Shown here: one piece after another, positions 25,754 through 41,927 of the stretch
How the letters are laid out: every line of letters starts with the position of its first letter
Position numbering within the stretch: the stretch's first letter is position 1
Sequence record: NC_000866.4
From: Escherichia phage T4
Reading direction: 5' to 3' (one strand)
DNA length: 64,000 bases
Program-made: the position numbers and the translations under genes
The notes under the pieces: model-generated
Database searches by the model: none
Told to the model about the DNA's origin: nothing
Seen by the model: only the letters and a program-made list of their open reading frames with translations

Positions 25754-26715
25754 TGTATTCTTTAGAGGAATTTAATAATCAAGCAATAAACGCAGATTTC
25801 CAACGTAATAATATGTTTAGCTGCGTTTTTGCGACAACTCCATCAACTAAAAGCTCTTCGTTGATAAGTTCAATTAGCAACTTTTCTTATAATAACTTGG
25901 GCCTAAATTCAGATTGGTTAGGATTAACTCAAGGTGATATTAATCAGGGAATTACCACGCTAATTACAGCTGGCACACAAAAACTGATAAGAAAATCAGG
26001 AGTCAGTAAATATCTTATTGGTGCCATGAGTCAACGTACAGTTCAAAGTTTATTAGGCTCATTTACAGTTGGTACATATTTAATTGACTTCTTTAACATG
26101 GCATATAACTCATCTGGATTGATGATATACTCTGTAAAAATGCCAGAGAATAGATTATCCTATGAAACTGACTGGAACTATAATTCTCCTAATATTCGTA
26201 TAACCGGAAGAGAATTAGACCCTTTGGTTATTTCATTTAGAATGGATTCAGAAGCTTGTAACTATCGTGCAATGCAAGACTGGGTTAACTCCGTTCAAGA
26301 CCCAGTAACTGGACTGCGTGCTTTGCCACAAGATGTCGAGGCAGATATTCAGGTTAATCTTCATTCTCGCAATGGATTACCTCATACTGCGGTGATGTTC
26401 ACGATGCATTCAATATCAGTGAGCGCTCCTGAGTTATCATATGATGGAGATAACCAAATAACTACATTTGATGTTACTTTTGCGTACAGAGTGATGCAGG
26501 CTGGAGCAGTTGATAGGCAACGTGCGCTTGAATGGCTTGAATCTGCTGCTATAAATGGTATTCAAAGCGTTCTCGGAAATAGTGGAGGTGTTACTGGACT
26601 ATCTAATTCGCTTTCACGACTTAGTAGATTAGGGGGAACTGCAGGAAGCATTTCAAACATTAATACTATGACAGGAATTGTCAATTCGCAGAGTAAAATA
26701 TTAGGAGCAATATAA
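25753..26715 (+). CDS. 54: Baseplate-tail tube initiator
   Basis: 320-aa ORF; T4 gp54 length; hairpin terminator downstream. Confidence 0.92.
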   Translation: MYSLEEFNNQAINADFQRNNMFSCVFATTPSTKSSSLISSISNFSYNNLGLNSDWLGLTQGDINQGITTLITAGTQKLIRKSGVSKYLIGAMSQRTVQSLLGSFTVGTYLIDFFNMAYNSSGLMIYSVKMPENRLSYETDWNYNSPNIRITGRELDPLVISFRMDSEACNYRAMQDWVNSVQDPVTGLRALPQDVEADIQVNLHSRNGLPHTAVMFTMHSISVSAPELSYDGDNQITTFDVTFAYRVMQAGAVDRQRALEWLESAAINGIQSVLGNSGGVTGLSNSLSRLSRLGGTAGSISNINTMTGIVNSQSKILGAI

Positions 26716-26720
26716 CAATG

Positions 26721-26747
26721 GGGACCGAAAGGTCCATATTTTTATTT
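26721..26747 (+). terminator. Terminator after gene 54
   Basis: GGACC-GAAA-GGUCC hairpin followed by a T-rich tract. Confidence 0.75.
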
Positions 26748-27032
26748 ACGGAATGAAATGAAAGCAGCAACTGAAGCAACTAAACTGTCTTCAATATAAA
26801 CTTCAATTTTTACAGGAGCTTCTGACTCAAATTTACCTGTTACTACACCCTGAAAAATACTTTCAGTCTGTTCTGGCTTTGAAAAATTTTCAGAAGGAAA
26901 AATTCCGAACTTTTTATCTGTTCCAAAAATTTTGATAAATTCATCGTAAACCGCTTCGTTAAAAGCATTATCAGCAGGAATAACGCCTTCAACTACAAGT
27001 TCTTGACCTAAAAAGCGTAAAGAAGATTTCAT
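26742..27032 (-). CDS. alt.-3: Hypothetical protein
   Basis: 96-aa ORF with ATG start and GAGGA RBS, downstream of an early promoter cassette; name by synteny. Confidence 0.7.
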   Translation of the reverse strand: MKSSLRFLGQELVVEGVIPADNAFNEAVYDEFIKIFGTDKKFGIFPSENFSKPEQTESIFQGVVTGKFESEAPVKIEVYIEDSLVASVAAFISFRK

Positions 27033-27063
27033 TTTGTGTTCCTCATGTTATGTTAGTAAGACT

Positions 27064-27093
27064 ACTATAACACAACACGAGGGACTTGTAAAC
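27064..27093 (-). promoter_or_regulatory. Early sigma70-like promoter upstream of alt.-3
   Basis: Minus strand GTTTACA - 17 nt - TATAGT, then leader with GAGGA RBS; part of a duplicated 52-bp cassette. Confidence 0.6.
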
Positions 27094-27268
27094 TACATTT
27101 TGAACTTTTTAGTACGCGTAATAGGCATGCGTCGATTTTATACTGTTTCATTGTTTGAAGAGCAGTATCAAAAACAGCATTAATGACACCAATTGGATTT
27201 CCACCCAAGTTTTTAAGCTTAACTAATGATAGTTTCTCATTAACACCTATCATTACGATATGCATCAT
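27065..27268 (-). CDS. alt.-2: Alt N-terminal paralogue fragment (matches Alt residues ~64-128)
   Basis: 67-aa ORF MMHIVMIGVN...KQYKIDACLLRVLK aligns to Alt MMHIVPFTLT...RQYKIDACMLRILK. Confidence 0.75.
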   Translation of the reverse strand: MMHIVMIGVNEKLSLVKLKNLGGNPIGVINAVFDTALQTMKQYKIDACLLRVLKSSKCSLQVPRVVL

Positions 27269-27450
27269 TTTATCGCCTGGTTTAACGTTTTATTTGTATC
27301 ACCGCCAGAGGTGTATGTACAAAATCTAAATCCAGGAAGTACACTTTCTTCACCGGCTTGAATAGCAAAAATTTGTGGTATTTTATGCTTAGGATTTAAT
27401 GTAACAACCGGCGCCGAAGCGCCGTCAAATAATTCTGTAATAAGTTCCAT
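27265..27450 (-). CDS. alt.-1: Alt N-terminal paralogue fragment (matches Alt residues ~1-61)
   Basis: 61-aa ORF MELITELFD...PGFRFCTYTSGGDTN aligns to Alt MMELITELFD...PGFRLCTYTSGGDTN; stop overlaps the start of the next fragment. Confidence 0.75.
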   Translation of the reverse strand: MELITELFDGASAPVVTLNPKHKIPQIFAIQAGEESVLPGFRFCTYTSGGDTNKTLNQAIK

Positions 27451-27453
27451 GAT

Positions 27454-29505
27454 TTATCCTTGAACGAACTTGTAAGGCATGTTTGCAATATCTATGCAAG
27501 ACGCAATAATTCCAAGAGATGATTCTACTTTCTGTTTAACATTTGATGAAACAAATGATGCAAAGTCAACTCTATCTTCTATATCACCTGTCATTGTAAC
27601 CAATTCACCAGTTTCCATTAAATGGTCTCCGTCATAGATTACCGATTCGGTGAGTTCTTCTGTGGTCATAACTTCAGCTTGAATAAGCTTGTTGTTAGTT
27701 TTAACTGTTCCATCATTGTAAGATGCATCGGTTATTTTATTAACTTTGACCATTAATCCACGTGGCAAAATGACTTCCATTTCATTTGAAGGCGCTAAAC
27801 TTCCACCGGGTAAAACAACATTGACCTTATCAGCCCCAGTAATAACCCATCCAATTCCAACTAAATTATCGCTAGAATTTACAAGTCCTTCATCAGTTTT
27901 ATCAATAGAAACGCTTAAACGCTTTTCGTCTGGTAAAACACCTATAGATGAATCAGTCATCCAAGTACCAAAAATATTTGGATATAATGATGTTGACACA
28001 AAGTTTCTAAAATAAAAAACTCGATTTTTTACCATTGCTTCGTATATTGAAGGTAACATTCGTTGTGAACGATACAAAGTAATACCTTTTGGTAATCGTT
28101 CACCATTTTTAAAGGCTGAATCTAAATTATCAATAGCTTTTTCTATGTCAGATGCTGTCAAAATACTTGTACGCTCATCTGGATTATATAATCCCAAAAG
28201 AGCATTATTTATGTCTACATATCCTGAACCTACGTATTCACGAATTCCGCGTTTTTGCGCTGGTGTGTATTTAGATGAATCTTTATTTTCGACTATAGGA
28301 TGTAATGACCATCCAGCGGTAAGAGCATATCCACGTAATTCTCTTCGAATAATCTTTGTTTTTATTGCATTCCAAGAATTTTGTACTAACTCATTTGCAG
28401 CATCTTGGTTTAAATGCGAATGTTTGTTAATATTTCTTTCAAACCAAGCACCCTTATATTTTTCTAAAGTATCATCGACGATAGAAGCAATAGTTTCTAA
28501 GGTTTTTATTGAAGTAATAGATTCTTTTCGTAATCTTTCTAAAGCTTTATTTTTTATTTCTGCGTTAATAATGGATTCTTTATCTTCAGGAATTATAGAA
28601 GCTTCTCTGAATGCCATCCCAGCTGTAACACTGCTAAGAGCATTCTCTAGTGCAAATCCTGAAGTAGAAATTACCGTTAATTCATTAGAATCAGAAATTA
28701 AAGGCGCGTCCGCTGGTTTATTTAATTCGGCCGCTGAAGCCTCAAATTTTTGAAACATTGGTGTTTCAAATCTAGAAGATTCCAATGACTGACTTTGCGC
28801 AATTGCTCTACGGGAAATTTTAACTTTAACGATTACAGCTTGGTCAGAACGTTTATCATTTTCTTGCGCAATAGATGCTGCAATTGCCTCATTTTTAGTT
28901 ACTTGAGCCCCAGTATCTTTATTGATATAAACATCACCGACCTTCGATTCAACTTTAGTAAAGAGCTCGGTACTAATTTCCGGAACTCCTGGAATGTCTT
29001 CTAGTGATACATTTTTGCGATGTATAAGAATATATGCATACTTTTTATCGTAATCCCAGAGTTCCTTAAGAAGGACGTATCTACCACCTGAACGACTACG
29101 GATAAGTCTATCAGCAATAACTTGAATTTGTCGAGCTTGGCCAGCAGTTTTAGACTTAAGAATACGGAGCATACAGGCATCAATTTTATACTGGCGCATT
29201 GTTTGCATTGCAACAGTAAAAACTGAATTGATATAATTAATTGGGCTTGGACCAAGACCTTTTAATTTAGCAATTGAACCTTTAGCAGTTAATGTAAAAG
29301 GAACAATATGCATCATTTTATCGCCCATCTTTAAATCACGATTAGTATCACCTCCAGATGTATAGGTACATAAACGAAAGCCTGGTTGTTCAATTGCATC
29401 ATCAACATGAACTGAAAAAATTTGCGGTATTTTCTTCTTTGGATATAAGTTTGTAATTGGAAGAGTAGTATCTTCGTCAAATAATTCTGTAATAAGTTCC
29501 ATCAT
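27454..29505 (-). CDS. alt: ADP-ribosyltransferase, packaged head protein
   Basis: 683-aa ORF (two consecutive ATG; the second at 29502 gives 682 aa); R / STS / E-x-E triad elements (YRSQR, FVSTSL, NEMEV); TATAAATA on minus strand upstream. Confidence 0.93.
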   Translation of the reverse strand: MMELITELFDEDTTLPITNLYPKKKIPQIFSVHVDDAIEQPGFRLCTYTSGGDTNRDLKMGDKMMHIVPFTLTAKGSIAKLKGLGPSPINYINSVFTVAMQTMRQYKIDACMLRILKSKTAGQARQIQVIADRLIRSRSGGRYVLLKELWDYDKKYAYILIHRKNVSLEDIPGVPEISTELFTKVESKVGDVYINKDTGAQVTKNEAIAASIAQENDKRSDQAVIVKVKISRRAIAQSQSLESSRFETPMFQKFEASAAELNKPADAPLISDSNELTVISTSGFALENALSSVTAGMAFREASIIPEDKESIINAEIKNKALERLRKESITSIKTLETIASIVDDTLEKYKGAWFERNINKHSHLNQDAANELVQNSWNAIKTKIIRRELRGYALTAGWSLHPIVENKDSSKYTPAQKRGIREYVGSGYVDINNALLGLYNPDERTSILTASDIEKAIDNLDSAFKNGERLPKGITLYRSQRMLPSIYEAMVKNRVFYFRNFVSTSLYPNIFGTWMTDSSIGVLPDEKRLSVSIDKTDEGLVNSSDNLVGIGWVITGADKVNVVLPGGSLAPSNEMEVILPRGLMVKVNKITDASYNDGTVKTNNKLIQAEVMTTEELTESVIYDGDHLMETGELVTMTGDIEDRVDFASFVSSNVKQKVESSLGIIASCIDIANMPYKFVQG

Positions 29506-29525
29506 ATCCTCTCTAGTGTTTATTC

Positions 29526-29533
29526 TATTCTAT
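29526..29533 (-). promoter_or_regulatory. Late promoter TATAAATA for alt
   Basis: Minus-strand TATAAATA about 21 nt upstream of the alt ATG, after a CGAA-loop hairpin. Confidence 0.65.
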
Positions 29534-29559
29534 TTATAAAATTAAAGGCCCGAAGGCCT

Positions 29560-29748
29560 TTAATAATCTATTGGTAAGAGAGTACGATATATTTCAAACT
29601 TTGGACCTTTTTCATAAGCATCAAATGTTTCTGTGAATTTATTATAAGCATATGCATCTATAAATTCAATCATGATTTGTGATACAGAAGTAGAAACATC
29701 TCCACCTTCTTTTTGAGCCACGACAATTGTTTCTAAGTAAGCTTTCAT
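29560..29748 (-). CDS. Hypothetical protein (62 aa) between DNA ligase and alt
   Basis: ATG overlaps the ligase stop; no recognisable motif. Confidence 0.6.
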   Translation of the reverse strand: MKAYLETIVVAQKEGGDVSTSVSQIMIEFIDAYAYNKFTETFDAYEKGPKFEIYRTLLPIDY

Positions 29749-31208
29749 AGACCAGTTACCTCATGAAAATCACCAAATACATCTTCGAATGTATTAGCTT
29801 TAGTTTTATCTTCACGTAAACGAATCGCAATCGGAAGAAATAATTTAACGTAATCAGTGCGGCCATCAGATTTTAACCAACCGTTGCATTCGCACTCTAG
29901 AATTTTTCCAATATAATAATTTTGGTTTTCCATAATGCGAGTACGGTCAAGTTCATGCGATTTTACACCGGCTTTATCTTTTAAGCCTGAACCAGCATTT
30001 ACCTTAATTTTTCCACACTCTGACTCAAGAATAAATCCACCCGCTTTAGTAGGGTCTTTACGGTGAGGATAAATTCCTACAATTTTTAAATCAACATCAA
30101 TTACTTCTTTAAATTTATAAAGATTTTTTGAACGAGCATTTTCCCATAATCCATCGATATTTTTGAGAATAATACCTTCAAGACCTTGGTCAATATACTT
30201 TTTATAAATTACCTTAGCTTCATCTAGGTTATTTACTACCTGGTTTTCAATTAAAATTACTTTATCATATCCAGATGTCATTTGTTCTAGTTTAGAAAAA
30301 CGTACATCATATTTCAAACGAAATGCAGGAAGACTGTATATTTCTACCAACGGGACATAATCCCAGACCTGAAACTTCATGCATTGTGCTTCTTTTTCAG
30401 AAATGGTTCCCTTTAAAGATTTATTGGCGATTCCATTAGAAGCAGTACGTGATTCAGCTACTTCGGCGAATTCTTTAGCTTTACTGTTTTCAGGATAAGC
30501 ATCAAAAAGAAAATCTAGGCCTTCTGGCTCCTTTTTAACTTGCTCATGGTATACCAATTCGCCATCAATCAACACACCTTCTGGATGAATCTGGCGGGCT
30601 TCAGCGGTCATTTTAATTAACTCTTCCTTAAGAAGATCTAATCCTAGATATTCATTACCAGCTCGTGATAAAAGACGAACATCATCTAATTCATCACCTC
30701 TAACTTCAGCAAAACACCGAGCTCCATCAGCTTTTAACTGAGCAAAGGCTGGAAATTTGATATTCTTATTAATGCCTTTTTCATCATAAGAACTTGCGAG
30801 CATTTGAGGTTGTTCAGGAATTAAACCTGGCCAAACTTTGTTTGCAATAGATACTGAAGCACCACATTCAAGGTCTCGCATCATCACTCGACGCAAAACT
30901 TCAACATCATCTTTTTTACCATCGGTGATATATCCAGTTAATTCCTCAATTGCTGCATTTCCAGTCAATTTCCGAGTAGCTAATGTGAATTCAATGAAGT
31001 CAAGCATATCGGTAAGAGTCAACATTCCAAAACTCTGGGTAGCAATACCAGGTTTAGGCCATTTCTTGATATAATACTGTAACCCACGAGAATAAGTCAG
31101 ACGATATACTCGTTTAAGCAATTCATTATCTTTATTCTTTTCAAGAATTGCTTGCTTCTGTTTAGTTGAACCAATAGATGCTATTTCGTTCAGAATTTTA
31201 AGAATCAT
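29745..31208 (-). CDS. 30: ATP-dependent DNA ligase
   Basis: 487-aa ORF with adenylation motif I (LKADG); T4 DNA ligase length. Confidence 0.96.
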   Translation of the reverse strand: MILKILNEIASIGSTKQKQAILEKNKDNELLKRVYRLTYSRGLQYYIKKWPKPGIATQSFGMLTLTDMLDFIEFTLATRKLTGNAAIEELTGYITDGKKDDVEVLRRVMMRDLECGASVSIANKVWPGLIPEQPQMLASSYDEKGINKNIKFPAFAQLKADGARCFAEVRGDELDDVRLLSRAGNEYLGLDLLKEELIKMTAEARQIHPEGVLIDGELVYHEQVKKEPEGLDFLFDAYPENSKAKEFAEVAESRTASNGIANKSLKGTISEKEAQCMKFQVWDYVPLVEIYSLPAFRLKYDVRFSKLEQMTSGYDKVILIENQVVNNLDEAKVIYKKYIDQGLEGIILKNIDGLWENARSKNLYKFKEVIDVDLKIVGIYPHRKDPTKAGGFILESECGKIKVNAGSGLKDKAGVKSHELDRTRIMENQNYYIGKILECECNGWLKSDGRTDYVKLFLPIAIRLREDKTKANTFEDVFGDFHEVTGL

Positions 31209-31474
31209 TGTTCATCCTTTAGAGTTTGGTTTACAGCTCTATTATAAATCAATTCATCATTAAGCTCAGTCAAAGACCTGTGGTACGTGGTTCTAACTTT
31301 ATTTCCTTGCATCCAGTGCTTGATATAAATGAAACCTTGCTCTACACATTTTTTAAAAATTCGTTCGTCTTTTTGAGCTCGGAATTCTGGATTGCATCTA
31401 AAAAATTGATTTACGTGACCGTAATCACGTGTAGTATTACCTTCATTTTCATAAATAGTGTGAACAACAAACAT
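31205..31474 (-). CDS. Hypothetical protein (T4 30.x cluster)
   Basis: 89-aa ORF with ATG start overlapping neighbour. Confidence 0.65.
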   Translation of the reverse strand: MFVVHTIYENEGNTTRDYGHVNQFFRCNPEFRAQKDERIFKKCVEQGFIYIKHWMQGNKVRTTYHRSLTELNDELIYNRAVNQTLKDEQ

Positions 31475-32310
31475 TAGAATGCTCCTTGGAAAATATTATC
31501 ACCACAAGTAGGTCTATTATACAAATACTCTATACCGCCGGGCTTAATATAGTTCCATGTCTGAAACGGATGCGTCTGATATGGATGATATGGATTATAA
31601 GGATTAAATCCAGGAGTTCTCCAGGTAGTGTTCCAAGGAAAAGAATCGTTTTTAATCATCTTTTCAATTACATCTTTTATAGCTTTTTCACTATCAAAAC
31701 TTTCTTTATTTTCCTTTGGTGAAAAAAGCTTATTCTCTACATCGTTCCATGTATAAACTCGCTGAGCAGTTTTTGGAATATTGTCACGCTCTCCTCGAGC
31801 CATCCAATACACAGGAACACGTAATATTTCACTCGCGTGATCGCAGTGGTGAGCGAGATCGTCAATATAACAAATTACGTTATATTTCTCTTTTGCTTTT
31901 TTGAACAACTCTTCTTTTGAAGAATCATGACTACACATCAGTACTTCTGAGAAAGCACCAGGAAAAAGAGCATTCAAATTAAATTGACGATTTAATAGAG
32001 CGTCAATAGAATCACCCAATGCTGTAACAGCAACAAAATTATAATCTTCTTTTAATTTGTTAATTACACACAGAGCATCTTTATATGGAGACAAGTAACG
32101 AATAAAATCCGAACGATTGTATTTTTCAATTAACTTGACGCCAAGTTCTTCATCACAGTTAAAGAGTTTACCAGGAGAAATAAATTTCTCATCTTGGATC
32201 ATTTTTAAAATATGTTCTAACGGAAGATTATATTTCTGAGCAAAATAAGGAAGGCCTGATTGCCAGCTTAAACATACTCCATCAATATCAGTTAAAATAG
32301 TAGGCTTCAT
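31474..32310 (-). CDS. HAD-superfamily phosphatase / nucleotidase-like protein (T4 30.x cluster)
   Basis: 278 aa; N-terminal ILTDIDGV matches the HAD motif I (DxDGx); later acidic YIDD resembles the metal-binding motif. Confidence 0.75.
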   Translation of the reverse strand: MKPTILTDIDGVCLSWQSGLPYFAQKYNLPLEHILKMIQDEKFISPGKLFNCDEELGVKLIEKYNRSDFIRYLSPYKDALCVINKLKEDYNFVAVTALGDSIDALLNRQFNLNALFPGAFSEVLMCSHDSSKEELFKKAKEKYNVICYIDDLAHHCDHASEILRVPVYWMARGERDNIPKTAQRVYTWNDVENKLFSPKENKESFDSEKAIKDVIEKMIKNDSFPWNTTWRTPGFNPYNPYHPYQTHPFQTWNYIKPGGIEYLYNRPTCGDNIFQGAF

Positions 32311-32771
32311 AGAGAGTCTCTTAATAGGTTTAACACATCAATAAATTCAGCTTCGGTTAGTATTGTATCATCTTTTGTTAGACCACTAGCAATGCTGTGC
32401 TTCAAAACTTTTCCTTTCGAGGCTTGTAATGCATCACGAAAGCCCTTGTTTTGAATCGCTGCTTCAAAATATGCATTTGTGTATAATTCTTTCCACGCCG
32501 GGGAGTATCTTGAAAACGGAACTCCAAGCCAAAAGAGGGTCCCACGGTCCTGAGCTCTAGCATAAGACCTTCCAGCTTGTTGGGCGGCAAGCCCGGATAA
32601 CCCAAATATACGACGTTGTTGTTCAACATTTTTCACCTTACACCCTTGGAGGAATCCTTCAAGACCTCCAAATTGAATACCATCCATAACGAAAGGCCAT
32701 TGGGCGAAATTACTTAATGCACATGATGGCCACCTAAAATTGCTTCTAATCTCTAACTCAGACATTTTCAA
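32307..32771 (-). CDS. NADAR (YbiA/DUF1768)-like protein (T4 30.x cluster)
   Basis: 154 aa; LSNFAQWPFVMDGIQF...EGFLQGCK resembles the YbiA-family core FSNFAAWPIKVDGKTW...EHYFQAQK. Confidence 0.7.
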   Translation of the reverse strand: MKMSELEIRSNFRWPSCALSNFAQWPFVMDGIQFGGLEGFLQGCKVKNVEQQRRIFGLSGLAAQQAGRSYARAQDRGTLFWLGVPFSRYSPAWKELYTNAYFEAAIQNKGFRDALQASKGKVLKHSIASGLTKDDTILTEAEFIDVLNLLRDSL

Positions 32772-32964
32772 TGCTTATAATTTCAACATCAGCCCAATGA
32801 CCATAGCAAGGAAGACGAAATTCAACTGGCCAGTTAGGGTCCCTTTCTAATATAATAGACTCAACTTGTGGTTCTTCGTGTTCATCAGTATACGGATTTT
32901 TATCTGTTACTTTATATGTGACCTTAATGTACTGAATTCCAAAAATCTTATTAATTATATTCAT
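32758..32964 (-). CDS. Hypothetical protein (T4 30.x cluster)
   Basis: 68-aa ORF, overlapping neighbours. Confidence 0.55.
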   Translation of the reverse strand: MNIINKIFGIQYIKVTYKVTDKNPYTDEHEEPQVESIILERDPNWPVEFRLPCYGHWADVEIISIENV

Positions 32965-33158
32965 ACTAATTCCTTTAATCCGTAGATAGGAGATAATTCA
33001 TCACCCATACGAAGGTCTTCATTTCCATCTACCCAGGAAACAATATAAGCCTCTTTTATTTGAATACCACTCCATTTAAATGGAGGTAGAACCTTAGAAA
33101 TTAATCCAGGTATACCAACTCCCTTTAATTCAACAGTTTGACCTAAAAAGAATTTCAT
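32961..33158 (-). CDS. Hypothetical protein (T4 30.x cluster)
   Basis: 65-aa ORF, overlapping neighbours. Confidence 0.55.
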   Translation of the reverse strand: MKFFLGQTVELKGVGIPGLISKVLPPFKWSGIQIKEAYIVSWVDGNEDLRMGDELSPIYGLKELV

Positions 33159-33445
33159 TAGAACCTCATCTGAAAACCGTGCGATTTAACATTACCGCCG
33201 CCAATATCAGAAATGTTAATTTCACGCGCAATTGAAGGGTCAATGTCAATTTCACGATTGAGTTTAGTGATAGCTAAAGTATCACGCCCATTTACAGTAC
33301 GGAACTCTAAAGGACAAACCACATCAACGTAGTTTTTAATCGATTCGCTAGTAAGTTGCAAATGTGCAGGAAGGTCTTTAGGTGCCTTTGAGAAAACCAC
33401 TTCACAGAAATTTTTGCGGGTATCAAAATAAGTAGTCATAAACAT
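33158..33445 (-). CDS. Hypothetical protein (T4 30.x cluster)
   Basis: 95-aa ORF; AGGAAAA RBS; hairpin upstream. Confidence 0.6.
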   Translation of the reverse strand: MFMTTYFDTRKNFCEVVFSKAPKDLPAHLQLTSESIKNYVDVVCPLEFRTVNGRDTLAITKLNREIDIDPSIAREINISDIGGGNVKSHGFQMRF

Positions 33446-33486
33446 AATATTTTCCTCAGTAAGGGGCTGAAGCCCCTCATTTTATT

Positions 33487-33852
33487 TTAAATATCAAATT
33501 CATTAAGAACTACATCAAAGATTGCTTCAAGATGCTCAGGTTTAGCTCTGTTACTCAGAATATGACGAATCCAAGTTTTAACTAAGAGTTTACGATTAGC
33601 ACCATTCCAGCAAGGATGAGTCCCTAAATCGCGTTGGCGGAAATCATCATCCAGAGCGATTTTGAAGTTGGAACCTTTCATCGTGATTGAAACCGTGATA
33701 CCGTTTTCAAATCGCATATAAACGTAGTTAGGAGTCATATACTGTTCAATTTCGCATACTGATCCATTTTGATGTTTCCAGAGGCAAATAGTATCAATAG
33801 AACCTGCAATACCATTAGAAACATATTTACGTTCAAAGTTAATGTAGTTCAT
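33487..33852 (-). CDS. Hypothetical protein (T4 30.x cluster)
   Basis: 121-aa ORF with ATG start. Confidence 0.6.
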   Translation of the reverse strand: MNYINFERKYVSNGIAGSIDTICLWKHQNGSVCEIEQYMTPNYVYMRFENGITVSITMKGSNFKIALDDDFRQRDLGTHPCWNGANRKLLVKTWIRHILSNRAKPEHLEAIFDVVLNEFDI

Positions 33853-33920
33853 TTTTATTCTCCGAGATGTTTAATTGCGGTACAGGTATATAATATCATA
33901 TCCTGTACCAAAGTAAACAA

Positions 33921-34253
33921 TTATTTTACTACTTTCCAATGCTGCATGTCAAGTTTACCAACTTTTTTCATCTTCTCAATTAAGCGTTCTGCACGTTGGC
34001 GAGCTGTAACATAATGCCATTCGCCTAATTCATTTTGTTCAATTTTTCCAACGATTACTGTATTCAATTCATAAATCCAACCAGTAAAGAAATTATGAAC
34101 TTGAATTGTAAAGGTGAAATCTGTTCCCATACCTTCTGTTGTTTCTACTTCAATAATATCACCTTCAACTGCCATTAAGAACCACATAGTTTCATCATAT
34201 TTACCATTGAAGCATTTAGTTTTAACTGCAGCGTTCAGATTAATCGTTTTCAT
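33921..34253 (-). CDS. Hypothetical protein (T4 30.x cluster)
   Basis: 110-aa ORF with AAGGAG RBS, just downstream of an early promoter. Confidence 0.65.
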   Translation of the reverse strand: MKTINLNAAVKTKCFNGKYDETMWFLMAVEGDIIEVETTEGMGTDFTFTIQVHNFFTGWIYELNTVIVGKIEQNELGEWHYVTARQRAERLIEKMKKVGKLDMQHWKVVK

Positions 34254-34281
34254 TTTATTCTCCTTTGTTTGTGTAAGATAA

Positions 34282-34311
34282 TACTATCACAAAGGAACTA
34301 TACTGTAAACA
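34282..34311 (-). promoter_or_regulatory. Early sigma70-like promoter in the 30.x cluster
   Basis: Minus strand GTTTACA - 17 nt - TAGTAT, upstream of the 110-aa ORF (AAGGAG RBS). Confidence 0.55.
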
Positions 34312-34329
34312 ACTTTGTGCAATCTTTGG

Positions 34330-34358
34330 AAAATAAAAAAGGACTCCCGAAGGAGTCC
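34330..34358 (-). terminator. Terminator at the end of the 30.x cluster
   Basis: Minus strand GGACUCC-UUCG-GGAGUCC then UUUUUUAUUUU. Confidence 0.75.
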
Positions 34359-34363
34359 TCAAC

Positions 34364-34540
34364 TTATGCTTTCTGCTTACCAAAACGAGAAGCATCATCT
34401 CGAAGAACCGCACGTGCTCGGCGCATGATCTTCTCAACAGTTTGATTGATACGAGAGTTCGACCCACGCTTGTAGCCAGCGCGTTTAGAATCACCAACTT
34501 TCTTTTCAACTGCTTTCTTTGCTTTAGCTTGTTTTGCCAT
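34364..34540 (-). CDS. Small basic protein (58 aa, T4 30.x cluster)
   Basis: Taken from the first ATG (MAKQAKAKK...); Lys/Arg-rich; hairpin terminator immediately downstream. Confidence 0.5.
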   Translation of the reverse strand: MAKQAKAKKAVEKKVGDSKRAGYKRGSNSRINQTVEKIMRRARAVLRDDASRFGKQKA

Positions 34541-34784
34541 TATAAATTCTCTTTTAAATGAAAATGCAGGACTTATTGGCATTGCCTGCGCAAGCCCTCA
34601 AGGGGAACATAGGTTTTTGGATATTTAACGACCAGGATAACCATAAACCCGTCATCATTCACATTCAAGAGGTACACCGTAAAACTGTCGGGGTCTTAAA
34701 ACTATAATGATTCGCAAATCATTAATCAGACAGTTCGACGGCTCCTCGATTTAGCTCACACTAAGGCAGTGAATCTCCAATAAA

Positions 34785-35033
34785 TTACTTCAGTGTTACC
34801 ACAAAGTGACGAACTGCTTTTCGTGCAGCAGAAGCCAGAGGCTTAGCATATTTAAGTTCATCTTTTTCCTGAAGCTCAGCAGCTAATGCAGTTTGAGCAG
34901 GATTCAGATGTTTGAAATAACGCAGGATTTCAAGAGCTTCGGCTTCAACATCAATAGATGCGCCATAGTTTTCGTGACCATTATTCCATGCGTTTCGTTG
35001 CAGTTCAAGAGCGTGTTGTAATTGTTTAATCAT
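34785..35033 (-). CDS. rIII: Lysis inhibition accessory protein
   Basis: 82-aa ORF; T4 rIII length and position. Confidence 0.88.
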   Translation of the reverse strand: MIKQLQHALELQRNAWNNGHENYGASIDVEAEALEILRYFKHLNPAQTALAAELQEKDELKYAKPLASAARKAVRHFVVTLK

Positions 35034-35180
35034 TTAAAAATTCTCGTTAGAGATTAAAACTCGGTAGTCACGTTCTTCTGAATTTCATCTTCTTTCGACA
35101 GATCTCTCAGTTGTAGACTACCACATAGAATTGTTCGGTTAACTTATTATTCCGACACCCAATTCATATTATTATTTATA

Positions 35181-35516
35181 TCACTTATAAAGACACGGAA
35201 TAGCTTTATAGTGACAGGTAACGAATTTTTGTTTAATTTCTTTTGGCTGCTTAAGACCCAGAGCTACAAAAGGATGCGGAACATTTCGAATTTGACCAAC
35301 TGGAAGAGAAGTCAAATCACCAACTTCGCAGAAACCTTCAGGAACATCAGGACCGACAGAGTGAACTACACACAGTTCAGGAACTTCACCTTGAACACGT
35401 TTACCGATAATAAGTCCTGATTCTGTAACTTCTTCATCACCGGCTTGTGCAGGTTCAGAAACTAAAATAACATATTCACCGACAGCACGAATTGGTAGCT
35501 GTTGTACTTCAGACAT
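35181..35516 (-). CDS. 31: GroES-like co-chaperonin for capsid folding
   Basis: 111-aa ORF beginning [22 protein letters not shown], recognised as T4 gp31. Confidence 0.95.
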
Positions 35517-35546
35517 CGTTTTTCCTTTTTGTTAACAGATGAATTA

Positions 35547-35573
35547 ATAATAACAAATAGTTCTTAAAGCATT
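35547..35573 (-). promoter_or_regulatory. MotA-type middle promoter candidate for gene 31
   Basis: Minus strand AATGCTTTA - 12 nt - TATTAT, upstream of the gene 31 ATG. Confidence 0.5.
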
Positions 35574-35881
35574 TATTTACCAATAAATTGAAGCAAATGC
35601 TCAACTTTCATACCATTAACGGAAATCAATTTGTCAATAGAAAAACCTCGCCACGCACCAAGCTCAACATCAAATACTGGAATCATGTCAGTAGATTCTT
35701 TCCGAGTAGATTCAGTCAATTTGCCAGTTTGCATGGTTGGCATAAAGTCTGCATCACGAGTACCTTTCATAGTACGAATAGTACCATCAGACTTTTCAAA
35801 AACTACGTTTGAAACACCCATGGACAATTTAGTTTTCAAAATTTCACGAATTGCTACTTTCTGCTCAGTTGTCAGTTTCAT
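35573..35881 (-). CDS. 31.1: Hypothetical protein
   Basis: 102-aa ORF; name by synteny. Confidence 0.7.
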   Translation of the reverse strand: MKLTTEQKVAIREILKTKLSMGVSNVVFEKSDGTIRTMKGTRDADFMPTMQTGKLTESTRKESTDMIPVFDVELGAWRGFSIDKLISVNGMKVEHLLQFIGK

Positions 35882-36118
35882 TTATTTACCTATTACAGTT
35901 TTAATATGAGTTGTTCCACGTTCTTTAAGGGTGGAAAGTAATTTTTGGCATTTTTCTAAATCAGATTTCCAACTATATGGTCTATCAATACAAACCCAAT
36001 TTGTCTTATAATACTGTTTCCATTTAGAGAAAAAATATTTCTTATACTCTACAGCAAATGAGATGTTCTCGTTAGAATAAGAACTAATTGCTGTGAGTTT
36101 TACCAAACGAAATTTCAT
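35882..36118 (-). CDS. 31.2: Hypothetical protein
   Basis: 78-aa ORF abutting cd; name by synteny. Confidence 0.65.
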   Translation of the reverse strand: MKFRLVKLTAISSYSNENISFAVEYKKYFFSKWKQYYKTNWVCIDRPYSWKSDLEKCQKLLSTLKERGTTHIKTVIGK

Positions 36119-36699
36119 TATTCACCACAGAATTCGTTGATATTTTCCCAGTTTAACTTATTCAAGTTTTTCTTAGGAACATTAAACACTTCAATACCTG
36201 CATTTCGCAGAATATCATCCCAACCGGGTTTATTTTTGTCGTATGTTTCACAATAAACCAGCTTTTTAATACCAGATTGAGCTATCGCTTTTGCGCAATC
36301 TGGACAAGGAGAAAGTGTTACATACATAGTAGCACCTTCAATAGAAGAACCATTTCGTGCAGCAAACAAAATTGCATTTAGTTCAGCATGAATTTCATTT
36401 TTAGATGACCATTCCGAGTGAGCACTACGATGTTCTTTCGCCAAAACAAAACGATCAGTTGAACCAAATGATACGCATTCAGGCTTATGACCTTGAATGA
36501 TAGCATGTTTAGGCTTATTCAACAACCATCCTTGCTCAGCAGCATAATCACAACAGTTCACACCCCCTGCGGGTGAACCATTATACCCAGTAGAAATAAT
36601 ACGTCCATTCTTTTCAATTACTGCTCCTACCTTCCAGGAGCAACATTTTGATTCCTGCGATACTAAATATGCAATTTGAAGTACTGTACTCGCTTTCAT
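36118..36699 (-). CDS. cd: dCMP deaminase
   Basis: 193-aa ORF with zinc-deaminase motifs HAE and PCPDC; T4 cd length. Confidence 0.95.
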   Translation of the reverse strand: MKASTVLQIAYLVSQESKCCSWKVGAVIEKNGRIISTGYNGSPAGGVNCCDYAAEQGWLLNKPKHAIIQGHKPECVSFGSTDRFVLAKEHRSAHSEWSSKNEIHAELNAILFAARNGSSIEGATMYVTLSPCPDCAKAIAQSGIKKLVYCETYDKNKPGWDDILRNAGIEVFNVPKKNLNKLNWENINEFCGE

Positions 36700-37034
36700 T
36701 TCATAATCACCAGATAAGCAGATTTAGCAGTTTCAACACGATAAATTTCGTGACGAAGTTTAGTTATACTTTTAATAACAGAACTAATTATATTCTGCCC
36801 ATCTTTAAAGCGGTTTTTCTTATCAATAAAAACTGCGCCAGTCATCTTTTTGTGAAGCTCAACTGGATACTTCGTCACAATAATAGCATCATACACAGAA
36901 GGATGAATACTATTCACCAGAGTATCATTCATTAAAGTTATTCTAATGAACTGTGCTGTTTCAGAATCAAGCGCTCTATGATCGCCAGTATCATTTTCAA
37001 GACAATTATCAATTATATCAGTTAAATTCATCAT
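36696..37034 (-). CDS. cd.1: Hypothetical protein
   Basis: 112-aa ORF; name by synteny. Confidence 0.65.
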   Translation of the reverse strand: MMNLTDIIDNCLENDTGDHRALDSETAQFIRITLMNDTLVNSIHPSVYDAIIVTKYPVELHKKMTGAVFIDKKNRFKDGQNIISSVIKSITKLRHEIYRVETAKSAYLVIMK

Positions 37035-37261
37035 AGTACGCCATACACCCTTTGTGCTTCAACTAATCCATCAAAATCCAGTTTAAGATGCGATATTTGA
37101 TCGCCATCACCTGGATTCACAATTACTAATACTGAACGAGGAGTTTCGGTAATAACACGAACCGATGTTTCAGGAAATCGTTCAGAAACCTTATTTACTA
37201 ATTCCTGCGCAAATAGTTTAACTTTTTCTTGGAATTCCTTTAACAGTAATCGGTTTTTCAC
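37031..37261 (-). CDS. cd.2: Hypothetical protein
   Basis: 76-aa ORF; ORF-track start is GTG directly after a stop, so the true start is uncertain; early promoter upstream. Confidence 0.55.
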   Translation of the reverse strand: MKNRLLLKEFQEKVKLFAQELVNKVSERFPETSVRVITETPRSVLVIVNPGDGDQISHLKLDFDGLVEAQRVYGVL

Positions 37262-37301
37262 TTAGCAACATTTTGTTTTCCTCATTTGTTTTGGTAGAGC
37301 T

Positions 37302-37331
37302 ATAATATCACAACTCTACCGTAAAGTAAAC
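37302..37331 (-). promoter_or_regulatory. Early sigma70-like promoter upstream of cd.2
   Basis: Minus strand GTTTACT - 17 nt - TATTAT. Confidence 0.5.
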
Positions 37332-37333
37332 CA

Positions 37334-37609
37334 TTAAATCGCTTTGAATTCCGCAGTTTGAGATTCAAAGCGAATATCGCCTTTGATAACAAGCTCAGCA
37401 TCAAGACCAAATACGACAATGATATGCGCGGAACCTGGATACAGTGTAATGGCAATAGAATCCACCTGGTCTGGAAGCAAAGTGTTCAATACATGAGTCA
37501 CTTGAGCATGGATTCGAAGCTCAGCTGCGTTATCAAGTTTTTCAAACATATTATTAGCGATAATTTGGCTAAACACTACTTCTACGATTTTAGAGTAAGT
37601 CGGAAACAT
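37334..37609 (-). CDS. cd.3: Hypothetical protein
   Basis: 91-aa ORF; name by synteny. Confidence 0.65.
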   Translation of the reverse strand: MFPTYSKIVEVVFSQIIANNMFEKLDNAAELRIHAQVTHVLNTLLPDQVDSIAITLYPGSAHIIVVFGLDAELVIKGDIRFESQTAEFKAI

Positions 37610-37611
37610 AT

Positions 37612-37804
37612 TTACCTCACATAATTTTCTTCAAGCCAATCAATAACATCCAACGCATTATCAAAAGTTGAACCATCTACTCTGTCTTCTGTTTCATAAT
37701 CAAGAACATCTAGGCCTACTCTTCCGTCAACAATAGGCCATAGACAAAATAGATATTTCTTTTCTTTTTCAATTTTATCACAAAGACGATAAATCTTTTC
37801 TAGG

Positions 37805-37812: not shown

Positions 37813-39131
<1,319 letters not shown>

Positions 39132-39135
<4 letters not shown>

Positions 39136-39431: not shown

Positions 39432-39781
39432 TTAGAAAGGTCCTGGATGTCTTCTGCGAACTTGTTGAAGGAGTTGTTGATTTGTTTTTCAACCAATCCT
39501 GGCTTATGAGCCACCACATCCGCCTTCTTTGCATCTTTGCGCAGTTTTTCATTTTCACGCTCAATAGCAGCAATTGCCTCACGATTTTTATTATTCATCG
39601 CATCAATATAATTATACTGAATTCGCAAATTATTTAATGCTAAGGCGTTTTCATTGGCCGTTTTTGTAATTTCAGTAACTGATGTTTCTAATCTTTCTAC
39701 CTTATGTTTTAAAATAATAGATGTTCCGCCAAATGCTATTACAAGTAATAGCAATCCAGCTGTAAAATTACTTACATGCAT
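39428..39781 (-). CDS. pseT.3: Inner-membrane i-spanin (Rz equivalent)
   Basis: 117 aa; N-terminal transmembrane segment (LLLLVIAFGGTSIIL) followed by a charged helical region. Confidence 0.8.
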   Translation of the reverse strand: MHVSNFTAGLLLLVIAFGGTSIILKHKVERLETSVTEITKTANENALALNNLRIQYNYIDAMNNKNREAIAAIERENEKLRKDAKKADVVAHKPGLVEKQINNSFNKFAEDIQDLSK

Positions 39782-40278
39782 AAAGTTTTAATAACCTCTA
39801 CAATATCGTCTTGAGAAAGACCGTTAATTAAAATATGATGTTCAGCTGGAGATTTAGAAATTTTAAAGCATGCCTCAACATCTTCTGCCATATCCGATGC
39901 ACTACGATTTGGATTACTAATACCAAGGCGATGTTTTCCCGTCAAAGGATTAACGATGATATAGCATTTGCAGCTATTGATATGAACATTGGGTTGAGTC
40001 TGATTAATGAACACTTCACAATCATACTTAGCAAGTTGATTTTCTAAAAAGACTTTCATCTCTTCAACCGCATCAGGAAGCATATCACGGGCTTGCTCAA
40101 GACGACGATTTCGATATTCTTTAATGGTCGTTTTCCGCTTGACTTGCTTAGCTAAATCTTTCTTAAGACCAGTGATATATCCAACTCGACGATTTCCTTT
40201 GAATACAGAAATCCCATCTGTAGTATCACCGTATGCTTCAACGACCATTTCAGTAGTAATAAGTTGTAAATCCATCAT
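39772..40278 (-). CDS. alc: Alc, inhibitor of host transcription on cytosine-containing DNA
   Basis: 168-aa ORF (two consecutive ATG); lies between the spanin pair and rnlA as in T4. Confidence 0.85.
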   Translation of the reverse strand: MMDLQLITTEMVVEAYGDTTDGISVFKGNRRVGYITGLKKDLAKQVKRKTTIKEYRNRRLEQARDMLPDAVEEMKVFLENQLAKYDCEVFINQTQPNVHINSCKCYIIVNPLTGKHRLGISNPNRSASDMAEDVEACFKISKSPAEHHILINGLSQDDIVEVIKTLCM

Positions 40279-40306
40279 AAAGTCCTCATGTTATGTCAGT
40301 AAGACT

Positions 40307-40336
40307 ACTATAACACAACACGAGGGACTTGTAAAC
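40307..40336 (-). promoter_or_regulatory. Early sigma70-like promoter upstream of alc
   Basis: Minus strand GTTTACA - 17 nt - TATAGT, then leader with GAGGA RBS; second copy of the duplicated cassette. Confidence 0.6.
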
Positions 40337-40339
40337 AAC

Positions 40340-41927
<1,588 letters not shown>

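What the first reader, a model, noticed from the sequence alone, without database searches (positions are those of the whole stretch)
27042..27093. Near-identical 52-bp early promoter plus leader cassette present twice, about 13 kb apart
The 52 nt at 27042-27093 (upstream of alt.-3) and 40285-40336 (upstream of alc) differ at one position. Each contains GTTTACA - 17 nt - TATAGT and a leader ACAUAACAUGAGGA ending in the RBS. Such conservation in non-coding DNA suggests recent duplication, gene conversion, or selection on a shared leader; direct repeats could also mediate deletion of the intervening 13 kb.
Basis: seen in the sequence. Interest (0 to 1): 0.45.

Follow-up and report, generated by a model that had tools for sequence, protein, structure and literature searches.

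The report
Duplicated T4 early-promoter hairpin cassette
The repeat is real: phage T4 carries two near-identical copies of a 54-base control module in which a strong early promoter sits inside a hairpin that would hide the next gene's ribosome-binding site on RNA arriving from upstream; it is an old, conserved module of a known kind, not a recent duplication.

Summary
CONFIRMED. The window is phage T4 (genome 96001-160000). On the minus strand, 27093..27040 (before alt.-3) and 40336..40283 (before alc) are 54 nt with one mismatch. No such match occurred in 100 shuffles. Each copy fills the whole gap between the upstream stop codon and the downstream Shine-Dalgarno (SD) sequence.

It is more than a promoter plus leader. 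Read as RNA, the module folds into an 18-bp hairpin (-23/-25 kcal/mol). The 5' arm lies in the -35/-10 spacer, the -10 box sits near the top, and the 3' arm contains the SD. RNA started at the module's own promoter lacks the 5' arm and is unstructured.

At the orthologous rnlA|alc junction, eight other genus-level lineages keep this layout with different, mutually compensating sequences. The alt.-3 junction in other genera carries a different module, so the alc-type module was copied there in the Tequatrovirus ancestor. About 496 genomes have both copies.

I found no sign of ongoing gene conversion. The 13 kb between the copies holds DNA ligase (30) and co-chaperonin (31), which are essential by established knowledge, so a viable deletion is unlikely.

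Closest known are PeSL promoter/stem-loop cassettes and the T4 e/soc/49/I-TevI hairpins; here the internal promoter is early, not late. The function is inferred, not shown.

The parts
27040..27093 (-). Cassette copy A: the whole intergenic module between the alt-like remnant alt.-2 and alt.-3 (GTTTAC...GAGGA)
   Evidence: CM hit 64.6 bits
40283..40336 (-). Cassette copy B: the whole intergenic module between gene 63 (rnlA) and alc
   Evidence: CM hit 61.8 bits
27087..27092 (-). Copy A -35 hexamer TTTACA
27064..27069 (-). Copy A -10 hexamer TATAGT, preceded by TGn. It lies in the apical part of the hairpin. Predicted +1 is about 27057 (inferred from 7-nt spacing)
27070..27082 (-). Copy A 5' arm (anti-SD arm) CCUCGUGUUGUGU, inside the promoter spacer
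27041..27053 (-). Copy A 3' arm ACAUAACAUGAGG, containing the SD GAGG (27044..27041)
40330..40335 (-). Copy B -35 hexamer TTTACA
40307..40312 (-). Copy B -10 hexamer TATAGT with TGn. Predicted +1 is about 40300 (inferred)
40313..40325 (-). Copy B 5' arm (anti-SD arm)
40284..40296 (-). Copy B 3' arm with the SD GAGG (40287..40284)
26742..27032 (-). alt.-3, the gene served by copy A (early RNA and early protein)
39772..40278 (-). alc, the gene served by copy B (early RNA and early protein)
40340..41500 (-). Gene 63 (rnlA). Its stop codon TAA (40342..40340) lies 3 nt before the -35 G of copy B
27065..27268 (-). alt.-2, a remnant of the second alt copy. In T4 its frame runs into copy A and stops at the TAG within TATAGT. 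In T2 and RB14 the intact Alt-like gene stops at a TAG overlapping the first G of GTTTAC
29531..29538 (-). Late-promoter motif TATAAATA just upstream of alt, a likely source of late read-through RNA into copy A
   Evidence: alt is late in PMC9697503
26722..26735 (.). Bidirectional terminator-like hairpin after alt.-3. It is the only terminator-like site found on the minus strand in the scanned stretch 26700-27500
34251..34310 (-). Third module of the same architecture but unrelated sequence, before gene 30.8: UUCCUUUGU in the spacer pairs with ACAAAGGAG at the SD

Best explanation
The repeat is two copies of a complete intergenic regulatory module. Each copy is a strong sigma-70-type T4 early promoter (TTTACA, 17 bp, TGn, TATAGT) nested inside a long inverted repeat. 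The 5' arm of that repeat lies in the promoter spacer. The 3' arm is the mRNA leader and includes the Shine-Dalgarno sequence.

Inferred mechanism: RNA polymerase starting at the module's own promoter begins about 7 nt after the -10 box, inside the hairpin. That transcript lacks the anti-SD arm, so its ribosome-binding site is open and alc or alt.-3 is made early. RNA that enters from upstream (gene 63, or the late-transcribed alt and alt-like genes) contains both arms, folds into an 18-bp hairpin and buries the SD. Read-through RNA would therefore not be translated into Alc or Alt.-3. The hairpin may also attenuate transcription or stabilise the 3' end of the upstream message.

History, inferred from comparison: the alc copy is ancestral, because the same layout is kept with compensating sequence changes at rnlA|alc in many genera. 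The module was copied to the Alt-like|alt.-3 junction in the Tequatrovirus ancestor, where it replaced a different spacer-hairpin module. The two copies stay nearly identical because the genus is young and the promoter and helix are under purifying selection, not because of ongoing gene conversion.

Shown here: the repeat, the promoter consensus, the predicted hairpin and its statistics, co-evolution of spacer and leader, the distribution across genomes, and the published early timing of the downstream genes. Inferred: the transcription start site, the existence of read-through RNA, and the translational block.
For: Repeat and extent. Identity of the window as T4.

Promoter: both sites rank top in the consensus scan, with TG. 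A deposited Tequatrovirus record annotates this part as 'promoter'. alt.-3 and alc are early in both RNA and protein (PMC9697503 supplement).

Hairpin: -23.0 and -25.1 kcal/mol, z -4.8 and -4.0, with 0 of 200 shuffles folding as well. RNA started near the module's own +1 folds at only -2.1 and -5.7 kcal/mol, no better than shuffles.

The single A/G difference is U-A in one copy and U.G in the other.

Orthologous rnlA|alc junctions in JS98, STP4-a, KP179, CHI14, UFV01, CIP9, Clarke_MM3 and NM4.3 keep -35, anti-SD arm, -10 and SD arm with different sequences, for example CCTCATTTCGTT/AACGAAATGAGG, CTCCATTTGGTT/AACCAAATGGAG and ATCCCATTTTGTT/AACAAAATGGGGAT.

RNAalifold on a plain MAFFT alignment gives 10 pairs, 7 with both-side compensatory changes.

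Swap control: cognate spacer-leader duplexes average -18.9 kcal/mol against -11.0 for non-cognate pairs, and only 1 of 20,000 random reassignments does as well.

Within Tequatrovirus, 7 of 12 variable sites keep or improve a pair (C->U opposite G, G->A opposite U, U.G->C-G, G-C->G.U), 2 lie in the loop and 3 break a pair. The sense strand folds 5-10 kcal/mol better than the antisense strand.

No T-run follows the stem, so neither copy is flagged as an intrinsic terminator.

A late promoter motif sits upstream of alt and alt is a late gene.

The alt.-3 junction in six other genera carries a different module. Only T4-group genomes have near-identical modules at both junctions. About 496 genomes hold both copies. 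I found no signal of concerted evolution.
Against: There is no experimental 5'-end, 3'-end or translation data for these two junctions in the searchable literature, so the start site, the read-through and the block are predictions.

In genera other than Tequatrovirus the helices are perfect Watson-Crick, so they fold equally well on either strand and do not distinguish an RNA function from a DNA-level one.

Other T4 early promoters in the window (-35 at 37330 and 33917) have inverted repeats around the -10 box that do not include the SD. That suggests the stem-loop may also have a function unrelated to the SD.

RB69 lacks the anti-SD helix at alc, so the layout is dispensable.

rnlA RNA is classed as early, not late, so the timing rationale at the alc junction is weaker than at alt.-3.

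The model-fitted alignment gave only a weak covariation signal (67.8% of cells paired) because the helices sit in different registers.

Five of the 13 Tequatrovirus genomes were collected with an exact 3'-arm probe, which biases apparent 3'-arm conservation.
Confidence: 0.6

Rival explanations
1. PeSL reading: the module is a promoter/stem-loop cassette. Its stem-loop terminates or attenuates upstream transcription, and its main evolutionary role is as a portable recombination linker that moves or swaps genes. Pairing with the SD would then be incidental to a short intergenic space.
For: The layout matches the published PeSL definition: upstream stop codon, early promoter, stem-loop overlapping the -10 or lying between -35 and -10, then SD and start codon (PMC2839356). 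PeSLs were catalogued in the T4/PST pair with TTTACW-N17-TAYWAT (PMC4122927). The module has evidently been copied between two loci. RB69 alc carries the alt.-3-type module. JS09 ndd.1 shares the 3' half of cassette A. Other T4 promoters have stems that exclude the SD.
Against: No T-run follows the stem in either copy, and in the listed orthologues I saw none by eye, so they are not canonical intrinsic terminators. In all 9 rnlA|alc lineages with the helix, the SD lies inside the 3' arm and the anti-SD starts 1-5 nt after the -35 hexamer. That is more specific than a generic stem-loop requires. There are exactly two copies in every full-length record listed, with no spread to other loci and no loss within Tequatrovirus.
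Confidence: 0.25
2. DNA-level reading: the inverted repeat acts in DNA, as a cruciform or hairpin on the melted or single-stranded template, or as a protein-binding palindrome. It would modulate or shut off the early promoter, or serve as a recombination or replication signal.
For: Helices in eight non-Tequatrovirus lineages are almost all Watson-Crick and fold equally on both strands. Several early promoters carry repeats centred on the -10 box regardless of the SD. How T4 early promoters are shut off is described as not completely understood (PMC3014915).
Against: In T4 and T2 the stem has 2-3 G.U pairs. The sense strand folds at -23 to -24 kcal/mol against -14 to -18 for the antisense strand. 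Natural variants are C->U opposite G and G->A opposite U, which preserve pairing only in the sense strand. The loop is 4 nt with a 2-nt bulge and the stem spans about 45 bp of AT-rich DNA; no protein partner is known.
Confidence: 0.08
3. Plain duplication reading: the two copies are alike simply because a promoter + leader was duplicated recently or is homogenised by gene conversion, and the sequence between the hexamers has no function of its own.
For: The copies are 53/54 identical in T4. Both T2 copies share the derived G32A.
Against: Both copies are present genus-wide. Within-genome paralogue divergence equals between-genome divergence (2.1 vs 2.2). The cassette changes at about half the third-codon-position rate of the flanking genes (0.051 vs 0.099 and 0.026 vs 0.066 per site). 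Spacer and leader co-evolve across genera.
Confidence: 0.05

Closest known systems
PeSL (promoter-early stem-loop) cassettes of T4-type phages (Arbiol et al. 2010, PMC2839356; Comeau et al. 2014, PMC4122927), and the analogous early-promoter/stem-loop elements at the T-even internal-protein loci (Repoila et al. 1994, as cited there)
   Same: [quoted passage not shown] It has a strong early promoter, a stem-loop that overlaps the -10 box or lies in the spacer, and an SD at the 3' end. Similar copies occur at more than one locus, and there is evidence that a copy moved between loci.
   Different: PeSL stem-loops were interpreted as terminators or attenuators and as recombination linkers. Pairing of the promoter spacer with the SD was not described. 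The original PeSLs have GGGG...CCCC stems and occur at about 50 per genome in hyperplastic regions. Here there are exactly two near-identical copies, 13 kb apart, flanking genes conserved across genera, with no indel association observed.
T4 translation-initiation-region hairpins with an internal promoter: genes e, soc, 49 and I-TevI (reviewed in Uzan & Miller 2010, PMC3014915)
   Same: The SD and/or start codon is buried in a helix on long transcripts from upstream. A promoter lies inside the structure, so the gene's own transcript lacks the 5' arm and is translatable.
   Different: In all four known cases the internal promoter is a late promoter and the silenced RNA is early or middle read-through. 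Here the internal promoter is an early sigma-70 promoter and the RNA predicted to be silenced is later read-through. This would be the mirror image, and it has not been tested experimentally.
T4 'uber' early promoters (UP/-35/TGn/-10; Hinton 2010, PMC2988021)
   Same: GTTTAC-type -35, 17-bp spacer, TGn and a near-consensus -10. The downstream genes are expressed immediately after infection.
   Different: The promoter consensus does not account for identity of the 17-nt spacer and the 20-nt leader, nor for their complementarity. UP-element content upstream of -35 is not shared by the two copies.

Membership tests
T4 early (sigma-70-type) promoter | -35 (G)TTTAC/TTGACA-like hexamer, 16-18 bp spacer, -10 TATAAT-like hexamer, often with TGn | tested here: met
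   TTTACA, 17 bp, TG, TATAGT; 10 of 12 matches at both sites
T4 early (sigma-70-type) promoter | Downstream gene transcribed immediately after infection, with a mapped start site | tested here: inconclusive
   alt.-3 and alc are early in RNA and protein (PMC9697503 supplement), but I found no 5'-end mapping for these sites
T4 early (sigma-70-type) promoter | A/T-rich UP element upstream of -35 | tested here: inconclusive
   Copy A is preceded by AAAAAGTTCAAAATGTA. Copy B is preceded by coding sequence CCAGAAGGATACTAAGTT. The two are not shared
PeSL cassette | Early promoter plus a stable stem-loop within or overlapping the promoter | tested here: met
   18-bp hairpin spanning spacer, -10 and leader; z -4.8 and -4.0
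PeSL cassette | [quoted passage not shown] | tested here: met
   Gene 63 stop lies 3 nt before -35. The Alt-like stop overlaps the first G. The SD is the last element
PeSL cassette | Stem-loop acts as a transcription terminator or attenuator | not testable with these tools
   There is no T-run after the stem and the site is not flagged by the terminator scan. Function needs an assay
PeSL cassette | Repeated in the genome and associated with insertions, deletions or exchanges; mediates recombination and mini-circles | tested here: inconclusive
   Two copies exist and there is clear evidence of one ancient copy event. But there are exactly two places in every full-length record listed and no indel at the cassette edge: the T4 alt-like deletion ends at least 19 nt upstream. 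Mini-circles are not testable here
T4 sequestered-TIR hairpin with internal promoter (e, soc, 49, I-TevI) | SD and/or AUG base-paired in transcripts that start upstream | tested here: met
   Predicted: all four SD bases lie in a 13-bp stem at both copies. The layout is conserved with compensation in 8 other lineages. Prediction only
T4 sequestered-TIR hairpin with internal promoter (e, soc, 49, I-TevI) | A promoter inside the structure gives a transcript lacking the 5' arm | tested here: met
   The -10 box is apical and the predicted +1 lies in the 3' half. Own-transcript folding energy is -2.1 and -5.7 kcal/mol, no better than shuffles
T4 sequestered-TIR hairpin with internal promoter (e, soc, 49, I-TevI) | The internal promoter is a late promoter (TATAAATA) | tested here: not met
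   No TATAAATA lies within either cassette. The internal promoter is of the early type
T4 sequestered-TIR hairpin with internal promoter (e, soc, 49, I-TevI) | Demonstrated reduction of translation from long transcripts | not testable with these tools
   Needs reporter or ribosome-profiling experiments
Rho-independent terminator | GC-rich stem followed directly by a U-run | tested here: not met
   The tails are ACACAAAAUG and CUUUAUGAUG. Neither cassette is reported by the terminator scan
Any curated Rfam RNA family | Match reaching the family's gathering score | tested here: not met
   No hit at either cassette even at E <= 1 over 26000-41600

The most novel reading that the evidence does not exclude
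Promoter-nested anti-SD hairpins may be a general, portable insulator class in Tevenvirinae. By placing the anti-SD in the promoter spacer, the phage would make translation of an early gene conditional on which promoter produced the RNA. Early proteins such as Alc would then stop being made once early promoters shut off, however much later read-through RNA crosses the gene. This would be the mirror image of the e/soc/49/I-TevI late-gene switch. The whole unit can be transplanted between junctions as a cassette (alc to alt.-3 in Tequatrovirus, and possibly the reverse direction in Mosigvirus).
Probability: 0.4. Interest if true: 0.6.

Novelty: new variant of a known kind. Interest (0 to 1): 0.45.

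Why it matters
T4 is the reference system for timed phage gene expression. The shut-off of early protein synthesis is attributed to an incompletely understood promoter shut-off plus RegB cleavage (PMC3014915).

A conserved design in which the early promoter's own spacer encodes the anti-SD would add a third, purely cis-acting layer: only RNA born at that promoter is translatable. It would also explain why bases between and after the promoter hexamers, which the promoter consensus does not require, are conserved. It gives the PeSL stem-loops a concrete second function.

The two T4 copies, and the swap of module types between the alc and alt.-3 junctions in different genera, are a clean natural example of a regulatory cassette being transplanted as a unit.

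In practice the 54-nt module is a compact, self-insulating expression part, and the prediction can be tested with a few reporter constructs. If the block does not occur, the element is still an ordinary, already catalogued kind of T4 early-promoter/stem-loop cassette.

Tried and rejected
1. A fuzzy-regex scan for weak copies timed out. I replaced it with a Hamming scan.

2. An exact 14-mer scan of IMG/VR (ACATAACATGAGGA) returned about 100 loci that were mostly chance hits. Only 5 genome pairs were true cassettes, and they are biased toward an invariant 3' arm. I flagged this and added 5 unbiased copies chosen by BLAST.

3. The reference T4 records NC_000866 and AF158101 are not in the collection, and the Miller 2003 review is not held. 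I therefore could not check published early-promoter lists or any earlier remark on these two promoters.

4. A covariance-model alignment of 35 hits gave only a weak signal: 67.8% of cells paired, 1/500 shuffles reaching the covariation score, and the +3 slide almost as good. The helices of different genera sit in different registers, and non-member promoters were included. I replaced this with the alignment-free swap control.

5. Gene conversion is rejected.

6. An intrinsic-terminator reading is rejected for lack of a T-run.

7. A viable 13-kb deletion is considered unlikely because genes 30 and 31 lie in the interval, and no listed full-length record has one copy.

8. I considered translational coupling. 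A ribosome terminating at the gene 63 or Alt-like stop codon would stop a few nucleotides short of the helix base by my own geometric estimate, so it probably does not open the helix. In T4 itself the alt.-2 remnant frame does run through the 5' arm, so coupling cannot be excluded there. This was not tested.

9. RegB targeting is not applicable, because the T4 SD is GAGG, not GGAG.

10. There is no Rfam family at either site, and no paper in the library prints the sequence.

Full report
**1. Observation**

The two stretches were read and aligned. The genes here run on the minus strand, where the shared block reads GTTTACAAGTCCCTCGTGTTGTGTTATAGTAGTCTTACT[A/G]ACATAACATGAGGA.

- It occupies 27093..27040 and 40336..40283: 54 nt with one mismatch, 2 nt longer than reported. 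The repeat finder extends it to 57 nt with two mismatches, 13,243 bp apart (family D5).
- Similarity ends abruptly on both sides.
- A search allowing three mismatches finds only these two sites in the window, and none in 100 dinucleotide-preserving shuffles.

**2. Context**

The window is phage T4. It is 99.6% identical to the T4 records, and gene coordinates in a published table place it at T4 96001-160000.

- Copy A lies between alt.-2, a remnant of a second alt gene, and alt.-3 (ATG at 27032).
- Copy B lies between gene 63 (rnlA) and alc.

In both places the block is the entire intergenic region.

- The gene 63 stop codon is 3 nt before the first G.
- In T2 and RB14, where the second Alt-like gene is intact (2058 nt), its TAG stop overlaps that G.
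- The block ends with the SD GAGGA, 4-7 nt before the ATG.

**3. Promoter**

Both copies are the best sigma-70-type matches in their neighbourhoods: TTTACA, 17 bp, TG, TATAGT, 10 of 12.

- This fits the published description of T4 early promoters as UP/-35/TGn/-10 promoters (PMC2988021).
- One deposited Tequatrovirus record annotates this part as a promoter.
- alt.-3 and alc are early in both RNA and protein in time-resolved omics (PMC9697503 supplement).
- I found no start-site mapping for these sites.

**4.

Read as RNA, the whole block folds into an 18-bp hairpin of -23.0 (A) and -25.1 (B) kcal/mol, with z -4.8 and -4.0. None of 200 shuffles folds as well.

- The 13-bp lower stem pairs CCUCGUGUUGUGU, which lies in the -35/-10 spacer, with ACAUAACAUGAGG, the leader including the SD.
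- The -10 box and the predicted start (about 7 nt after it) lie in the apical part.
- RNA beginning near the predicted start has no significant structure (-2.1 and -5.7 kcal/mol, z about 0).
- The single A/G difference between the copies falls opposite a U, giving U-A in one copy and U.G in the other.
- Neither copy has a T-run after the stem, and neither is called a terminator.
- No Rfam family matches.

**5. Is the hairpin selected?**

I fetched the orthologous rnlA|alc junction from other genera. The gap is always about 60-68 nt. Eight lineages show the same layout with different sequences. By genus they are Dhakavirus JS98, Gelderlandvirus STP4-a, Jiaodavirus KP179, Winklervirus CHI14, Karamvirus UFV01, Kanagawavirus CIP9, Moonvirus NM4.3 and the unclassified Clarke_MM3. 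Examples of the arms:

| Phage | 5' arm (spacer) | 3' arm (leader + SD) |
|---|---|---|
| CHI14 | TCCTCATTTCGTT | AACGAAATGAGGA |
| UFV01 | TCTCCATTTGGTT | AACCAAATGGAGA |
| KP179 | ATCCTCATCAG | CTGATGAGGAT |
| STP4-a | CTCCGTTT | AAACGGAG |
| CIP9 | ATCCCATTTTGTT | AACAAAATGGGGAT |
| Clarke_MM3 | CCTCGTTTGTT | AACAAACGAGG |

- RNAalifold on an ordinary MAFFT alignment recovers the helix: 10 pairs, 7 with both-side compensatory changes.
- An alignment-free swap control gives cognate spacer-leader duplexes a mean of -18.9 kcal/mol against -11.0 for non-cognate pairs. Only 1 of 20,000 random reassignments does as well.
- A covariance-model alignment of 35 hits was much less clear, because of register differences and the inclusion of non-member promoters.
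- Within Tequatrovirus (13 genomes), 7 of 12 variable sites keep or improve a pair, 2 are in the loop and 3 break a pair. The SD itself never varies.
- The T4 and T2 stems contain G.U pairs, so the sense strand folds 5-10 kcal/mol better than the antisense strand. In the other genera the stems are almost all Watson-Crick and give no strand information.

**6. Origin of the second copy**

The Alt-like|alt.-3 junction is also syntenic across genera. There it carries a different module: a small hairpin wholly inside the spacer, for example CCACAAGGATGTGG, with the SD unpaired.

- In Dhakavirus, Karamvirus and Kanagawavirus the two junction modules share only the generic promoter and leader consensus. 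In T4 they are 55/57 identical.
- RB69 (Mosigvirus) is the exception at alc. It has the spacer-hairpin type at both junctions, with the two copies about 70% alike.
- The simplest history is that the alc-type module was copied to the alt.-3 junction in the Tequatrovirus ancestor.
- The copy is not recent. 496 phage records contain a full-length match, and every full-length record listed has exactly two places.
- It is not kept alike by ongoing conversion. Paralogue differences within genomes average 2.1 and between genomes 2.2.
- The cassette changes at about half the rate of third codon positions in the flanking genes, and the genus is young: third-position divergence is 0.07-0.10 per site. 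Age plus purifying selection is enough to explain one mismatch in T4.

**7. Mechanism**

My best-supported reading, at confidence about 0.6, is a promoter nested in an anti-SD hairpin.

- Transcripts born at the cassette promoter are translatable.
- Transcripts entering from upstream fold and hide the SD.

At copy A the upstream gene alt has a late promoter motif (29538..29531) and is a late gene. The only terminator-like site on that strand in the scanned stretch (26700-27500) lies after alt.-3. Late RNA should therefore cross the cassette.

At copy B the rationale is weaker, because rnlA has early RNA and late protein.

The design mirrors the known T4 cases e, soc, 49 and I-TevI. In those a late promoter sits inside a helix that sequesters the translation-initiation region, and early read-through RNA is silent (PMC3014915).

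A third module with unrelated sequence but the same layout lies before gene 30.8, at 34310..34251.

**8. Rivals**

- *PeSL terminator and recombination-linker reading (about 0.25).* It fits the anatomy and the evident copy event. It does not explain why the SD is always in the helix, nor the lack of a T-run.
- *DNA-level cruciform or protein-site reading (about 0.08).* It is compatible with the Watson-Crick stems of the other genera and with stems around the -10 box that exclude the SD at 37330 and 33917. It is disfavoured by the G.U asymmetry in T4 and T2.
- *Plain recent duplication or conversion (about 0.05).* It is largely refuted.

These readings are not mutually exclusive. The hairpin could both attenuate transcription and block translation.

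**9. Comparison with what is known, and novelty**

Early-promoter/stem-loop/SD cassettes are a described kind (PeSLs: PMC2839356, PMC4122927), including in the T4/PST pair. Promoter-within-hairpin translational control is a classic T4 theme.

What I did not find described in the accessible literature is the combination of an early promoter whose spacer is the anti-SD, its compensatory conservation across genera at rnlA|alc, and the transplantation of that module to alt.-3. The older subscription literature, including the 2003 genome review, could not be read, so prior mention cannot be excluded.

I rate it a new variant of a known kind, with interest 0.45. The repeat itself is ordinary for T4-type phages. 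The anti-SD design is a neat, testable addition rather than a surprise.

**10. The deletion idea**

The 13 kb between the copies contains DNA ligase (30), co-chaperonin (31), cd, pseT, rIII and alt. By established T4 knowledge, genes 30 and 31 are essential. No listed full-length record has a single copy. Non-viable deletions or circles could still form transiently, as shown for PeSLs, but that cannot be tested here.

Noticed in passing
window 27423-27453 and 29475-29505 (minus strand); L002 13961-16018; L003 13961-16018: A 31-nt, 97% identical repeat marks the 5' ends of alt.-1 and alt (both begin MELITELFD). alt.-1 and alt.-2 are the decayed second alt copy in T4. T2 and RB14 keep an intact 2058-nt Alt-like gene there. 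In T4 the alt.-2 frame runs into cassette A and stops at the TAG inside TATAGT.
   Followed up: partly
window 34251-34310 (minus strand): A third early-promoter module with the same anti-SD layout but unrelated sequence (UUCCUUUGU / ACAAAGGAG, TGn-TAGTAT) lies before gene 30.8. It is conserved in T2, RB14 and two metagenomic relatives (about 33 bits with model R1).
   Followed up: partly
window about 37269-37331 and 33850-33918 (minus strand): Early-promoter-like sites before cd.2 and 30.7 carry 8-12 bp inverted repeats centred on the -10 box (GGTAGAG...CTCTACC and GGTACAGG...CCTGTACC). These do not include the SD, so they are PeSL-like stems of a second type.
   Followed up: partly
L004 4519-4579 (Mosigvirus JS09, upstream of ndd.1): The ndd.1 leader shares TATAGTAGTCcTACTGA-AACATGAGGAACACAAAATG with cassette A, including the post-SD spacer, but it has a different 5' half with its own stem (GTAGGA...TCCTAC). 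This hints at exchange of half-cassettes between loci and genera.
   Followed up: no
L115 (Kosakonia phage 305, alt.-3 junction); L120 (Aeromonas phage 31.2, alc junction): In these phages the promoter spacer pairs with the start codon and first codons of the downstream gene rather than with the SD (-30.2 and -26.3 kcal/mol). The logic is the same but the target differs.
   Followed up: no
L106 and L124 (RB69, alc and alt.-3 junctions): RB69 has the small spacer-hairpin module at both junctions, with the two copies about 70% alike. This is possibly the reverse replacement (alt.-3 type copied to alc) in Mosigvirus.
   Followed up: partly
window 10530-10574 and 59804-59848: Two similar (78%) terminator-like hairpins, GGGAACCTTCGGGTTCCC followed by a T-run, lie 49 kb apart.
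   Followed up: no
window 26722-26735: A bidirectional terminator-like hairpin, GGACCGAAAGGTCC, lies between the convergent genes alt.-3 and 54.
   Followed up: no
window 26000-28200: This stretch is only 99.6% identical, with a 5-nt length difference, to all 13 T4 records in the phage collection. The window may be the older reference sequence, or a slightly different stock.
   Followed up: no
window 27027-27044 (minus strand): The leader of cassette A contains a tiny ORF, AUGAGGAACACAAAAUGA (MRNTK*), whose stop overlaps the alt.-3 AUG. It has no SD of its own and is probably chance.
   Followed up: no
window 34325-34408 (minus strand): A sub-threshold Rfam hit to the Rhizobiales sRNA Atu_C8 (31.4 bits against a gathering score of 50, E 0.006) lies just upstream of the 30.8 module. 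It is most likely chance.
   Followed up: no
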